From the NCBI RefSeq assembly GCF_056712565.1, contig NZ_CM160072.1: a stretch of 64,000 bases of DNA; one strand, written 5' to 3'. Made by a program: the position numbers and the translations under genes. Below are positions 15,795-18,659 of the stretch, piece by piece (position 1 is the stretch's first letter; each line of letters begins with the position of its first letter). The notes beneath the pieces were generated by a model. That model saw only the letters and a list, made by a program, of their open reading frames with translations. It was not told where the DNA came from and ran no database searches.

Positions 15795-15967
15795 TTCCTC
15801 GCACGATGTCTTAGCAACCGGATATCCCACAGGTGAGCCGTGTAGTTGAAGGTTTTTACGTCAGATTCTTTTGGGATTGGCTTGCGTTTATTTCTGGTGC
15901 GTTTCGTTGGAAGGTATTTGCAGTTTTCGCAGATGATGTCGGTGATACTTCGTCGCTGTCGCCTCAT
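15791..15967 (-). CDS. ninE: NinE
   Basis: 58-aa [37 protein letters not shown]... matching recalled lambda NinE; ATGA overlap with ninB. Confidence 0.7.
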
Positions 15968-16374
15968 TCGTACCTCCTGTCGGTAAATCTGACACCCTGA
16001 CCAATAGCCCATGCTGTTGTGTACTCGATCAGACTTGCCATACGCTTCACACTCATCTGCGCGCTGCTTTCGCGAATGTTGACGTATTCGCCTTCAAGCC
16101 CGGGCAAAACATCAGCTTCCTGTTTTGTTGCCACTGCATGACCGCTGATCAACAAAACCTTCCATTGTTCTGGTTTTAACCATTTATCGCGCCACTGAAC
16201 TTGCCTAGCGATATCTGCGACCATCGCGTGAAATTTTGCGTTCTGGTCAAGGTTGCGCTTGTAGTCAGTAATGCGGATGGTGACTGGCTTGTCTTTATCG
16301 AGTGGTGTTGCGAGGATGGCATTTATTGCAGCTTGCTGTTGTTGCTTAGTTCGGAGGAATATTGTTTGCTTCAC
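15964..16374 (-). CDS. ninB: NinB (Orf-family recombination mediator)
   Basis: 136-aa ORF with DQNAKFHAM...QWRDKWL motif resembling lambda NinB. Confidence 0.8.
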
Positions 16375-16385
16375 TGAATACTCCT

Positions 16386-16577
16386 TTATTTTTTATGCCT
16401 GTAACCCCATTCTTCCAGCAACCTTGCGGCGTACCACCCAAGAAACAAAGGAAAGAACATTACAATGAGATATTTCCCGCCACGGTCAATGTTCGAAATT
16501 GACCAGATTACGATGTAACCAGTGCAGGACAGGAATATTACAAACCCCAAAAAGCTACTTCGTCGACTCATGCTCAC
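16386..16577 (-). CDS. Small membrane protein (63 aa, two predicted TM helices)
   Basis: Hydrophobic ORF with basic C-terminus, translationally coupled to upstream gene. Confidence 0.45.
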   Translation of the reverse strand: MSMSRRSSFLGFVIFLSCTGYIVIWSISNIDRGGKYLIVMFFPLFLGWYAARLLEEWGYRHKK

Positions 16578-16991
16578 TCCTTCACTTTGATTCCAGCGGC
16601 GCGGATAGCCTCTACATCGCTTTCGTATTGCGATTCTGCACCTGAGTCATAGCCAATGTGATAATCACCGGGAAGTGGGCCTTTCTTTGGCTTTTGCAGC
16701 TCAATTTCAATAGCTGCTCTCGATGCCTGCCACGTTTGCCAGTGGCCTTGAACATCGTCCATCACGTATTGACCACCAATATCACCACTGCCAATTTCAT
16801 GGTGATTTTCAGGGTAACGGATAAGGTCTGAAGATTCGCCCCCCACGTCGTAACCAACTCTCTTCAAACTGGCATCTGCTTTCGTCATCTTTCATAAGGC
16901 AGTCACATTCAATAAAAATCGGCTCTCCCCAAGGAGTAGAACCTCCGCTATCACACATTCCTGTGTTATTGCACTTTTGGCACTTGCTCAC
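16574..16991 (-). pseudogene. Zn-ribbon protein gene apparently split by a frameshift at a G6 tract
   Basis: 60-aa GTG-start ORF (16809..16991, CxxC...CxC, GGAGG Shine-Dalgarno) overlaps a 104-aa ORF (16574..16888) in another frame; frames join at coding-strand G6 (plus C6 16839..16844). Confidence 0.35.
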
Positions 16992-17003
16992 ATTAACCTC
17001 CGA

Positions 17004-17210
17004 TTAACTCACAAAACGCCACGCCACTTTTGCTACGACAACAGGCATAACACCGATAATCACCCACAGAAAAATGCTACCGAAAAGCACACCAACCAGG
17101 TCTTTACCTTCGCCTACCAACCGGACAAAACTGCTGGCAACCACAATGAACGTCGCCACCATCCACATAGCACCGAGAATCCTCAATGCAGAAAAAATCA
17201 ACTCAACCAC
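17004..17210 (-). CDS. Small membrane protein (68 aa, GTG start)
   Basis: Two hydrophobic helices; first gene after tR2-like terminator, in the position of lambda ren/ninA. Confidence 0.4.
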   Translation of the reverse strand: MVELIFSALRILGAMWMVATFIVVASSFVRLVGEGKDLVGVLFGSIFLWVIIGVMPVVVAKVAWRFVS

Positions 17211-17224
17211 GATTTACCCTCCCC

Positions 17225-17257
17225 CAAATAAAAAGGCCTGCGATTACCAGCAGGCCT
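17225..17257 (-). terminator. tR2-like rho-independent terminator after the helicase gene
   Basis: Minus strand AGGCCTGC-8 nt-GCAGGCCT followed by TTTTTATTT. Confidence 0.6.
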
Positions 17258-17282
17258 GTTACAAGCTCAGTGATGTAGATGG

Positions 17283-18659
17283 TCATACGTCAGCCCCTTG
17301 TGCATATCGTCTGCCACGCGCAGCAGGTGCATTTGATGCTGTGCAAATCTGTCTGGCTTCATCCTGGTCACATGCAACAAAGTGTCCGTTGCAGAACCGC
17401 TGGTAAACCGTACCAAGTGAGCCAAAACGGTTTTTCGTCACGATGATTTCAGCAAATGGCGCGGCGCTACTGTTCTCGTCATATACCGCTTCCCGATAGA
17501 GCATGATGATTGAGTCTGCGTCCTGTTCAATGCTTCCTGAATCACGCAAATCTGCGTTTGTCGGGCGTTTGTTTGGTCGCTTCTCAACATCGCGTGAAAG
17601 CTGACTCAGGGAAATAACCGGTGTTTTCAGGTCTTTCGCCATCGCCTTCAGGCTTCCGGAGATGTGAGCAATTGCGAGGTCGTTGCGGTCTGCTTTCGGC
17701 TTCTCAATCAGGCCAAGATAATCCGCCATGATGAGTGAGAGGTTTGGATTTTCCTGTTTGTGCCGTTCTGCGATTGAGCGTATTTCTTCGACCGATAATC
17801 GCGAGGCATCGACTACCCATACATCCAAATCTGCAAGCTGACTCATGCCGTTAGCAACACGTGCCCAGCCCTCGTCATCCATCGATGCAGGATTTCGCAG
17901 TACGCTAACCGACATCCTCCCGGCGTTGGCAATGCTTCGCTCTGCAATCTGCAATGCGCTCATTTCCATTGAGAAAATCAATACCCCGCGCCGGACGTCA
18001 GAACCAGGAATAACGCGGCTTGCAACGCCTTCGGCAATCTTCAGCGCCAGTTCGGTTTTCCCCATACCAGGACGAGCAGCGATTATCACCAGGTCTTCCG
18101 CGTTCATCCCTCCGGTGATGGCATCAAGTTCTTCGATTCCGGTCTTCAGGGTATCGGACTCTTCTCCGTTCCTCAGACGCCTGTCAAGCGTGTCAGTGTA
18201 GTCGGTGATGATTTCCCCTAACCGTACAGGTTTAACCTCGTCACGGGGCTTTCTGATGGCTGAGAGACGTTTTACAAGTTCATCCATCGCCTGACTCGAT
18301 GCGTCGATGGTTCCGCTTTGGATTGGTTCACGCATTTCATCCATGATTTCCAGCACCAGACGGCGGTGATAGTTATCCGCGACCATTCCGGCATATCCCT
18401 TCAGGTTTGCGGCGCTCGGGCAGTTTTTGCTGGTCATCAGGATTGACGTGAAATGCTCCTCTCCGCACGCCTCGGCAACCATCAGCGCGTCGATTAGGTT
18501 TCTGTTTCTCGCCTGCTTCCGGATAACCTCGAAGGCTTTCCGGTAGAGCGGAATTGAAAACGCTTCCGGCTCCAGCGTTGCAAGAACGTCACTGGCGGTT
18601 GGAGTTAATCCACCAATCAGCAGGCCACCGATAACGCTCGCTTCGATATCCTGTCTCAT
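17283..18659 (-). CDS. Replicative DNA helicase (DnaB-like, P22 gp12-type)
   Basis: 458-aa ORF with Walker A (ARPGMGKT) and DnaB C-terminal domain motifs; overlaps O-like gene. Confidence 0.9.

What the first reader, a model, noticed from the sequence alone, without database searches (positions are those of the whole stretch)
16386..17210. Nin-region cluster of small membrane proteins plus a Zn-ribbon gene split at a G6 tract
Between the tR2-like terminator and ninB lie two small two-helix membrane proteins (68 and 63 aa) flanking a 60-aa Zn-ribbon ORF and a 104-aa ORF in overlapping frames. The frames can be joined by a 1-nt shift at a coding-strand G6 homopolymer (plus 16839-16844). This is either a sequencing or real frameshift, or a slippery site giving two products. 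Small membrane proteins at this position are candidates for superinfection exclusion or toxin-like functions.
Basis: seen in the sequence. Interest (0 to 1): 0.4.

Follow-up and report, generated by a model that had tools for sequence, protein, structure and literature searches.

The report
Frameshifted accessory gene in P22-like prophage
A small non-essential prophage gene has been broken by one extra G in a run of Gs; the break is real, inherited and already flagged as a pseudogene in public annotation, and it sits between two real small membrane-protein genes of unknown function, so the finding is ordinary.

Summary
On the minus strand, downstream of a tR2-type terminator (17257-17234), lie a 68-aa two-helix membrane ORF (17004-17210), a 60-aa Zn-ribbon ORF (16809-16991) overlapping a 104-aa ORF (16574-16888), a 61/63-aa two-helix membrane ORF (16386-16571/16577) and ninB. 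The two overlapping ORFs are one gene broken by a +1 G insertion (G6, 16839-16844). Phage phiv205-1 is otherwise identical across this gene but has G5 and an intact 138-aa ORF. Of 204 complete E. coli genomes carrying this region, 33 have G6; almost all others examined are one base shorter, i.e. in frame. Relatives such as HK022 encode the two glycines as GGA GGC, with no run, so there is no conserved slippery site. The shift separates invariant motifs of the family (phrog_343 / PF26207 / PGAP 'phiTE_015 family'), and the 104-aa ORF has no ribosome-binding site. RefSeq already annotates it as 'frameshifted'. It is not a sequencing error: the allele recurs in independent assemblies, including APEC O1, S88 and ATCC 11775. 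Both membrane ORFs are real genes under purifying selection. orf68 is common (107 phage records); orf61 is rare and missed by PGAP. The function of all three genes is unknown. Interest is low.

The parts
17283..18659 (-). DnaB-type replicative helicase gene (P22 gene 12 type); upstream neighbour of the cluster
   Evidence: ORF; RefSeq product 'replicative DNA helicase' WP_001248388.1.
17224..17257 (-). tR2-type intrinsic terminator: 8-bp G+C-rich stem, 8-nt loop, then TTTTTATTT
   Evidence: stem 17257-17234; fold energy -15.7 kcal/mol; sequence identical to the 'tR2' feature of Lahn2 and the 'terminator' feature of HK75.
17004..17210 (-). orf68: conserved small protein with two predicted transmembrane helices (phrog_1165; WP_000229808.1; HK022_58, HK75_43, Lahn2 ORF69); function unknown
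   Evidence: phrog_1165 E=6.7e-36 over the full length. Shine-Dalgarno GGAGGG 7 nt before the GTG start, and two hydrophobic segments at about residues 4-33 and 38-60. Full-length tblastn matches in 107 phage records, down to 42% identity. dN/dS 0.39 against 611R6, Fisher p=0.002.
16574..16991 (-). Frameshifted pseudogene: N-terminal Zn ribbon (C4, C7, C29, C31) fused to a PF26207 / phrog_343 / 'phiTE_015 family' core; 138 aa when intact
   Evidence: Intact in phiv205-1, which is identical across the gene apart from G5. phrog_343 E=3.2e-31 across the shift point. Homologues carry PF26207. RefSeq annotates it 'frameshifted' in ATCC 11775, S88, APEC O1, FY26 and ExPEC XM.
16839..16844 (-). G6 homopolymer (GGG GGG) where the intact allele has G5 (GGG GGC, Gly-Gly): the site of the +1 insertion
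   Evidence: HK022 and 611R6 encode the same Gly-Gly as GGA GGC.
16809..16991 (-). 60-aa ORF: the predicted actual translation product of the broken gene (Zn ribbon, the first 19 residues of the family core, a 9-residue out-of-frame tail)
   Evidence: Shine-Dalgarno GGAGG 5 nt before GTG 16991; translation.
16574..16888 (-). 104-aa ORF: the out-of-frame remainder of the broken gene, not an independent gene
   Evidence: No Shine-Dalgarno sequence before ATG 16888. Its first 15 residues are out-of-frame sequence, and it lacks the invariant E37-S38-R39/F42-E43 motif.
   Evidence: Shine-Dalgarno AAGGAG 5 nt upstream, lying inside the last codons of the upstream gene. Homologues are 61 aa. dN/dS 0.20 at dS about 1.0 against a 72%-identical homologue that sits directly after a DnaB gene in another context, Fisher p=6e-6. 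Present in 4 phage records.
15964..16374 (-). ninB (Orf-family recombination mediator); downstream neighbour
   Evidence: RefSeq WP_000814617.1 'recombination protein NinB'.

Best explanation
The overlapping 60-aa and 104-aa ORFs are the two halves of one accessory nin-region gene (Zn ribbon plus PF26207/phrog_343 core, 138 aa). The gene was inactivated by a slipped-strand +1 insertion in a G5 run (GGG GGC became GGG GGG C). The mutation is real and is inherited with a P22-like prophage integrated at the dsdC/torI site of a group of closely related E. coli that includes ATCC 11775, APEC O1 and S88. Shown: the insertion, its distribution, the intact alleles, and the separation of the family's invariant motifs. 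Inferred: ribosomes start at GTG 16991, read the Zn ribbon and 19 core residues, shift frame and stop after 60 aa. The 104-aa frame has no ribosome-binding site and is not translated to a useful level. Loss of translation up to the stop codon probably also removes translational coupling to orf61, whose Shine-Dalgarno sequence lies in the last codons of the broken gene. The gene is dispensable like other nin-region genes, so the break is tolerated in a resident prophage. That prophage carries at least one other homopolymer frameshift (A7 in a DUF4752 gene). orf68 and orf61 are real small membrane-protein genes. They are probably transcribed only from the early rightward (PR-type) operon, after antitermination through the tR2-type terminator. 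Their role is unknown.
For: The window differs from phiv205-1 by one extra G across the 441-nt gene alignment, and the phiv205-1 ORF is an intact 138 aa. Over the surrounding 987 nt, phiv205-1 and E19035 each differ from the window by 1 mismatch and 1 gap. The G6 81-mer, exact or with one substitution, occurs in 33 of 204 complete E. coli genomes that carry the region. The other 27 rows of the best-60 list are one base shorter, and so are the rows sampled from the remainder, with one exception. Thirty of about 31 genomes with the window's 10-kb haplotype have G6. G5 alleles are GGG GGC; HK022 and 611R6 use GGA GGC. The invariant residues E37 S38 R39 F42 E43 lie upstream of the shift, and W84 W87 Q88 S90 R91 K135 K137 lie downstream. 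There is no Shine-Dalgarno sequence before the 104-aa ORF, while orf68, the GTG 16991 start, orf61 and ninB all have strong ones. RefSeq labels the gene 'frameshifted'. The S88 sublineage has since gained an N62H change at a nearly invariant residue. A second frameshift, A7 instead of A6, lies in the DUF4752 gene of the same prophage. Nin-region genes are non-essential, and non-functional copies are already known in Sf6 (PMC5630979).
Against: No expression or read-level data were available, so a low level of frame restoration cannot be excluded. One genome, ExPEC XM, carries this same prophage (24 kb, 1 mismatch) with G5, plus a second related prophage with G6. Strain B27 has a G4 (-1) frameshift at the same codons in a different allele. 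The tract has therefore changed more than once, unless these are assembly errors or products of recombination between prophages. The 60-aa product keeps an intact Zn ribbon, a module also found at the N-terminus of unrelated phage proteins, so it might retain some activity.
Confidence: 0.85

Rival explanations
1. The extra G is a sequencing or assembly error and the gene is intact in the real organism.
For: Homopolymers are error-prone. Other 1-nt length differences occur among near-identical copies of this prophage: A9/A10 in APEC O1 and a T deletion in FY26.
Against: The identical G6 allele is present in 33 complete genomes from many laboratories and years, including APEC O1, S88 and several independent assemblies of the type strain. 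Four of them share a later substitution on the G6 background, which implies inheritance.
Confidence: 0.02
2. The G6 tract is a programmed recoding site (+1 ribosomal frameshift at GGG-G, or transcriptional slippage) that yields both a 60-aa Zn-ribbon peptide and the full-length protein.
For: tRNA-Gly can re-pair after a +1 slip on GGG G. The next 0-frame codon, CGA, is rare in E. coli (own knowledge). The 0 frame stops only 9 codons later.
Against: Programmed sites are conserved, and this one is not. Most alleles are in frame, close relatives have G5, and others have GGA GGC. No stimulatory element was identified. Slippage on a run of six G is expected to be inefficient (own knowledge).
Confidence: 0.04
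3. The G run is a contingency (phase-variable ON/OFF) switch for this accessory gene in resident prophages.
For: G5 and G6 occur on an otherwise identical 24-kb prophage backbone (ExPEC XM versus the window). G6 also sits in a second prophage, at ybhC, in ExPEC XM. A G4 frameshift occurs at the same codons in strain B27.
Against: Thirty of about 31 genomes with the same 10-kb haplotype have G6, and none has G7, which indicates stable inheritance rather than frequent switching. Five to six G is short compared with known contingency tracts, and E. coli has active mismatch repair (own knowledge). The ExPEC XM and B27 cases could be recombination between co-resident prophages or assembly noise.
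Confidence: 0.06
4. The split has produced two independently functional genes: a stand-alone Zn-ribbon peptide and a stand-alone C-terminal domain protein.
For: Many family members of 87-106 aa lack the Zn ribbon, so the core can work without it. The Zn ribbon is a separable module found on other phage proteins.
Against: The stand-alone members all begin with the invariant M-DESRxQFEE segment. The 104-aa ORF has lost that segment and has no Shine-Dalgarno sequence. In the other phages examined, the Zn ribbon is always an N-terminal domain of a larger protein.
Confidence: 0.03

Closest known systems
PF26207 / phrog_343 / PGAP 'phiTE_015 family protein' (Sf6 gene 48, HK022_59, Gally 'similar to P22 EaD', an unnamed BP-933W protein)
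   Same: Sequence family, position between the replication genes and ninB, and the mosaic build from conserved blocks MDESRKQFEE / WQASRAAIEIE / IRAAGxKVKE.
   Different: The window copy is frameshifted. It also belongs to the minority of members that carry an N-terminal Zn ribbon: only 3 phage records cover at least 80% of the 138-aa query. The family has no known function.
Decayed nin-region genes in lambdoid and P22-like phages (Sf6: one nin gene with a premature stop, one disrupted by IS911)
   Same: A non-essential, mosaic nin-region gene inactivated by a simple mutation and tolerated by the phage (PMC5630979).
   Different: The lesion here is a homopolymer +1 insertion, and it is fixed in a prophage lineage rather than seen in one laboratory phage.
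Programmed +1 frameshifting (E. coli prfB) and transcriptional slippage genes
   Same: Two overlapping frames that a 1-nt shift at a repetitive site can join.
   Different: The site and the two-frame architecture are not conserved among homologues. There is no in-frame stop or recognised stimulator at the shift site. prfB features are from own knowledge.
Small phage membrane proteins that exclude superinfecting phage (T4 Imm, P22 SieA/SieB, HK97 gp15)
   Same: Size and predicted two-helix membrane topology of orf68 and orf61.
   Different: No sequence similarity to any defence or exclusion family in PADLOC, Pfam or NCBIfam. No own promoter detected, and the genes lie behind a terminator in the early lytic operon. 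No phenotype data.
Lambda-type tR2 terminator
   Same: Sequence identical to the features annotated tR2 (Lahn2) and terminator (HK75), in the same place after the replication genes.
   Different: None seen.

Membership tests
PF26207 / phrog_343 ('phiTE_015 family') | Significant profile match spanning the protein | tested here: met
   The G5-corrected translation matches phrog_343 at E=3.2e-31 over residues 27-138, and the 104-aa fragment alone at 6e-23. The 100%-identical cluster P0001 and all listed homologues carry PF26207. The local Pfam and NCBIfam copies gave no hit.
PF26207 / phrog_343 ('phiTE_015 family') | One uninterrupted ORF holding both invariant blocks (ESRxxFE and WxxWQxSR...KVK) | tested here: not met
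   The G6 insertion separates the blocks into two frames. The window copy is a pseudogene of the family.
PF26207 / phrog_343 ('phiTE_015 family') | Location between the replication genes / orf68 and ninB in lambdoid or P22-like genomes | tested here: met
   Same position in phiv205-1, 611R6, 683R2, HK022, Gally, E19035 and ExPEC XM.
Programmed ribosomal frameshift / recoding site | Slippery motif and two-frame layout conserved among homologues | tested here: not met
   Most alleles are in frame. The motif is G5 in close relatives and GGA GGC in HK022 and 611R6.
Programmed ribosomal frameshift / recoding site | Measurable synthesis of the trans-frame product | not testable with these tools
   Needs a reporter assay or proteomics.
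Phase-variable contingency locus | Tract length varies among very close relatives or within clones | tested here: inconclusive
   Thirty G6 to one G5 among genomes with the same 10-kb haplotype. One G5 copy on the identical backbone in ExPEC XM, and one G4 allele in B27. These cannot be separated from recombination or assembly error.
phrog_1165 (orf68 family) | Full-length profile match and conserved position directly after the tR2-type terminator | tested here: met
   E=6.7e-36 over residues 1-68 of 68. Same position in HK75, HK022, 611R6, 683R2 and Lahn2. 107 phage records.
Superinfection-exclusion / defence membrane proteins | Homology to a described exclusion or defence protein | tested here: not met
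   No PADLOC, Pfam or NCBIfam family at E<=0.1-1 for orf68 or orf61.
Superinfection-exclusion / defence membrane proteins | Exclusion or toxicity phenotype | not testable with these tools
   Needs expression and plating experiments.
Intrinsic (tR2-type) terminator | G+C-rich hairpin followed by a U tract, downstream of the replication genes | tested here: met

The most novel reading that the evidence does not exclude
The Gly-Gly G-run may act as a mutational ON/OFF switch, or a low-level +1 recoding site, for a nin-region accessory gene in resident prophages. Three observations are compatible with this: a +1 allele on two prophage backbones, an apparent G5 revertant on an identical backbone, and an independent -1 allele in another strain. 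Separately, orf61 is an unannotated, selectively constrained small membrane protein whose translation would be coupled to that switch. It could act in lytic-phase exclusion or membrane modulation.
Probability: 0.08. Interest if true: 0.4.

Novelty: already known. Interest (0 to 1): 0.1.

Why it matters
It matters little. The result shows that the overlapping ORFs are a pseudogene and not a recoding signal, which saves follow-up effort. It also gives three small annotation points. First, RefSeq misses orf61, a 61-aa membrane-protein gene with a strong ribosome-binding site and dN/dS of 0.2. Second, RefSeq starts the intact gene at an internal Met and so drops a Zn-ribbon domain that has its own Shine-Dalgarno/GTG start. 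Third, the gene family, orf68 and orf61 are conserved early-operon proteins of lambdoid and P22-like phages that still have no assigned function. If the G-run did switch at an appreciable rate, it would be a modest example of contingency behaviour in a prophage accessory gene.

Tried and rejected
- **Profile searches.** Pfam, NCBIfam and PADLOC scans of all five ORFs or products gave nothing.
- **Solved structures.** PDB sequence and profile searches gave only chance hits or none.
- **Structure prediction.** An AlphaFold2 model of the intact 138-aa protein, built from a 46-sequence alignment, was of low confidence (mean pLDDT 56, Zn-ribbon region below 50). I ran no fold search, because matches to such a model would be meaningless.
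- **RNA genes.** An Rfam gathering scan and ARAGORN found no RNA gene in the window, so an RNA-gene explanation for the region was dropped.
- **Literature.** Searches for 'phiTE_015' and 'PF26207' found no paper. A search on nin region plus transmembrane gave only general background.
- **Two separate genes.** I considered the 104-aa ORF as an independent gene equivalent to the 87-106-aa family members that lack a Zn ribbon. I rejected this because those members start with the invariant MDESRxQFEE block, which the 104-aa ORF lacks, and because it has no Shine-Dalgarno sequence.
- **Sequencing error.** I rejected this on the 33-genome recurrence and on the derived substitution in the S88 group.

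Full report
**Context.** The window is 99.992% identical over 49.7 kb to E. coli ATCC 11775 (3 mismatches, 1 gap). The region of interest lies in a P22-like (Lederbergvirus-type) prophage integrated next to dsdC/torI. All genes of the finding are on the minus strand, in the early rightward operon. Their order is cII, replication protein, DnaB-type helicase (17283-18659), terminator, orf68, the split gene, orf61, ninB (15964-16374), ninE, ninX, ninF and onward to Q.

**Checking the observation.** The coding-strand G6 is at 16839-16844. The hairpin at 17257-17234 followed by TTTTTATTT is the only terminator-like site in 15900-17400 and folds at -15.7 kcal/mol. Its sequence is identical to the feature annotated tR2 in phage Lahn2 and 'terminator' in HK75. 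Hydropathy windows give two hydrophobic helices in each small protein. One correction applies: the 63-aa ORF most likely starts at ATG 16571 (61 aa). That start has AAGGAG 5 nt upstream, and its homologues are 61 aa long.

**What the overlapping ORFs are.** Phage phiv205-1 (MN340231) matches the window exactly across the 441-nt gene alignment except that it has G5 where the window has G6. Its ORF is an uninterrupted 138 aa. Deleting one G from the window sequence reproduces that protein exactly.
- The intact protein matches phrog_343 across the shift point (E=3.2e-31). Its homologues all carry PF26207.
- RefSeq/PGAP annotates the window's allele as a 'frameshifted' pseudogene, sometimes named 'phiTE_015 family protein'. 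This is seen in ATCC 11775, S88, APEC O1, FY26 and ExPEC XM.
- In a 46-sequence alignment the invariant residues E37, S38, R39, F42 and E43 lie before the shift point (residue 51). W84, W87, Q88, S90, R91, K135 and K137 lie after it. Neither ORF therefore holds the complete conserved core.
- The GTG at 16991 has a good Shine-Dalgarno sequence (GGAGG, 5 nt spacing). The ATG of the 104-aa ORF has none.

**Real mutation or error.** An 81-nt probe centred on the tract finds the region in 204 of 5,426 complete E. coli genomes.
- Twenty-nine genomes match exactly, and four more (S88, MS7163, N53, N62) match with one substitution and the same 81-nt span. That gives 33 genomes with G6.
- The next 27 rows have spans one base shorter. 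The rows sampled from the remaining 144 genomes are also one base shorter, with one exception described below.
- A G5 probe finds 15 exact matches.
- The G6 genomes come from many laboratories and include APEC O1, S88 and several assemblies of the type strain.
- The S88 group carries a later A-to-C change (window 16807) on the G6 background. It converts the nearly invariant N62 to H.

This is an inherited mutation, not a sequencing artefact.

**Programmed slippage or phase variation.** The slippery motif is not conserved.
- The Zn-ribbon-bearing alleles (phiv205-1, 683R2, E19035) have GGG GGC. HK022 and 611R6 encode the same Gly-Gly as GGA GGC.
- Homologues are single ORFs of 87-170 aa.
- Among about 31 genomes that share the window's 10-kb haplotype, 30 have G6 and one has G5, and none has G7. 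This pattern indicates stable inheritance.

Two observations keep a small door open.
- ExPEC XM carries the window's prophage at dsdC/torI with G5; 24,081 nt align with 1 mismatch and the 1-nt gap. It also carries a second P22-like prophage at ybhC, with a different immunity region but the same replication-nin module, and that copy has G6.
- Strain B27 has a G4 (-1) frameshift at the same codons in a different allele, which is also annotated as frameshifted.

These cases may reflect a slippage hot spot, exchange between co-resident prophages, or assembly noise. Other 1-nt homopolymer differences occur among near-identical copies of this prophage: A9/A10 in APEC O1 and a T deletion in FY26. The same prophage also has an A7-for-A6 frameshift in a DUF4752 gene at window 25932-26217. 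Together these fit ordinary mutational decay of accessory genes in a resident prophage. Nin-region genes are non-essential and highly mosaic, and non-functional copies are already described in Sf6 (PMC5630979).

**Architecture of the intact gene.** The family core begins at M(K)DESRxQFEE, which is Met33 of the 138-aa form. Many members of 87-106 aa start there and lack the Zn ribbon. PGAP also starts the intact gene at this internal Met, giving 106 aa (WP_024189664.1).
- The upstream GTG has the Shine-Dalgarno sequence. The 32-residue extension holds CxxC...CxC.
- A diverged copy of this ribbon keeps its four cysteines in another family member, P0026.
- Residues 4-38 recur at 56-66% identity at the N-terminus of unrelated phage proteins, including Seurat gp78 (179 aa) and Pseudomonas phage LSL4 gp153 (425 aa).

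The Zn ribbon is therefore a real, portable N-terminal module. The function of the core is unknown. There were no Pfam, NCBIfam or PADLOC hits in the local libraries, no PDB relatives, and the AlphaFold2 model was of low confidence.

**The small membrane proteins.**
- **orf68** matches phrog_1165 over its full length and is annotated in RefSeq (WP_000229808.1). It occupies the first position after the terminator in HK75, HK022, 611R6, 683R2 and Lahn2 (as ORF69). It occurs in 107 phage records, down to 42% identity in Salmonella P22-like phages. Its dN/dS against 611R6 is 0.39 (p=0.002).
- **orf61** is rare: four 90%-identity clusters among 5.8 billion protein sequences, and four phage records. 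It is nonetheless real. It has a strong Shine-Dalgarno sequence. A 72%-identical homologue sits in a different context, directly after a DnaB gene. Its dN/dS is 0.20 at dS of about 1.0 (p=6e-6). None of the five RefSeq loci inspected annotates it.
- The Shine-Dalgarno sequence of orf61 (AAGGAG) lies in the last codons (KVKE) of the upstream gene, and the stop codon is 2 nt before the ATG. I infer that the frameshift, which ends translation 235 nt upstream, removes translational coupling.
- No sigma-70-like promoter is detected between the terminator and ninB. I infer that these genes are expressed only from antiterminated early transcripts. That argues weakly against a lysogen-expressed exclusion function. 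It does not exclude a lytic-phase role of the T4 Imm kind (own knowledge).

**Module mosaicism.** The region between the terminator and ninB varies by phage.

| Phage or locus | Genes between the terminator and ninB |
|---|---|
| HK75 | orf68 only |
| 683R2 | orf68, Zn-core (144 aa) |
| 611R6 | orf68, core (94 aa), orf61 |
| HK022 | orf68, core (105 aa), an unrelated 84-aa ORF |
| Gally | core (102 aa), orf61 (not annotated in the record) |
| phiv205-1, E19035 | orf68, Zn-core (138 aa), orf61 |
| Window | orf68, Zn-core (broken), orf61 |

Sources.

**Verdict.** The feature is a lineage-specific pseudogene of a non-essential prophage gene and is already flagged as such in RefSeq. Novelty is nil and interest is low. 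The residual value is in the minor annotation corrections and in three conserved early-operon proteins that still have no assigned function.

Noticed in passing
window 25932-26217 (+): There is a second homopolymer frameshift in the same prophage. A DUF4752-family gene has A7 where the related prophage of strain E19035 has A6 and an intact gene. RefSeq marks it 'frameshifted' in ATCC 11775 and ExPEC XM.
   Followed up: partly
L017 (ExPEC XM 2644220-2668299) and L018 (ExPEC XM 805160-833240): One genome holds two P22-like prophages that share the replication-nin module. The dsdC/torI copy matches the window over 24 kb (1 mismatch, 1 gap) but has G5. The ybhC copy has a different immunity region and int/xis, and it has G6. 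This could be recombination between prophages, reversion or mis-assembly.
   Followed up: partly
L021 (strain B27, NZ_AP027424.1 1456251-1456570): An independent frameshift of opposite sign (G4, i.e. -1) lies at the same Gly-Gly codons in a different allele of the family that has no Zn ribbon. It is also annotated 'frameshifted'. It is seen in a single genome, so an assembly error is not excluded.
   Followed up: partly
window 16386-16571 (-): orf61 is not annotated in any of the five RefSeq loci inspected (L001, L002, L010, L017, L018). Yet it has a strong Shine-Dalgarno sequence, is conserved, and has dN/dS of 0.2. It is probably a missed small gene.
   Followed up: yes
window 16893-16991 (-): PGAP starts the intact gene at internal Met33 (106 aa) and so omits the Zn-ribbon extension, which has its own Shine-Dalgarno/GTG start. 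The same ribbon (residues 4-38) is the N-terminal domain of unrelated proteins in Seuratvirus phages, Pseudomonas phages (LSL4, CHA_P1, Epa16/17/26) and Cronobacter phage Peggy.
   Followed up: partly
alignments A2/A3 (family of the gene at 16574-16991): The PF26207 family is an intragenic mosaic. Three conserved blocks (MDESRKQFEE, WQASRAAIEIE, IRAAGxKVKE) are separated by segments that are swapped between members. The conserved C-terminal KVKE codons also encode the Shine-Dalgarno sequence (AAGGAG) of the next gene.
   Followed up: no
window 21243 and 21833; L019, L020: Near-identical copies of this prophage differ mainly by 1-nt indels: A9 versus A10 in an intergenic tract in APEC O1, and a T deletion in FY26 that creates another annotated frameshift. 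These are either slippage mutations or assembly noise.
   Followed up: partly
window about 24000-27000 (prophage early-left region): RefSeq annotation of the identical ATCC 11775 sequence shows further decayed genes: a partial ead/Ea22-like gene and a partial DUF2737 gene. The prophage sits at the dsdC/torI junction with torI as its excisionase-like end gene. No integrase lies at this end.
   Followed up: no
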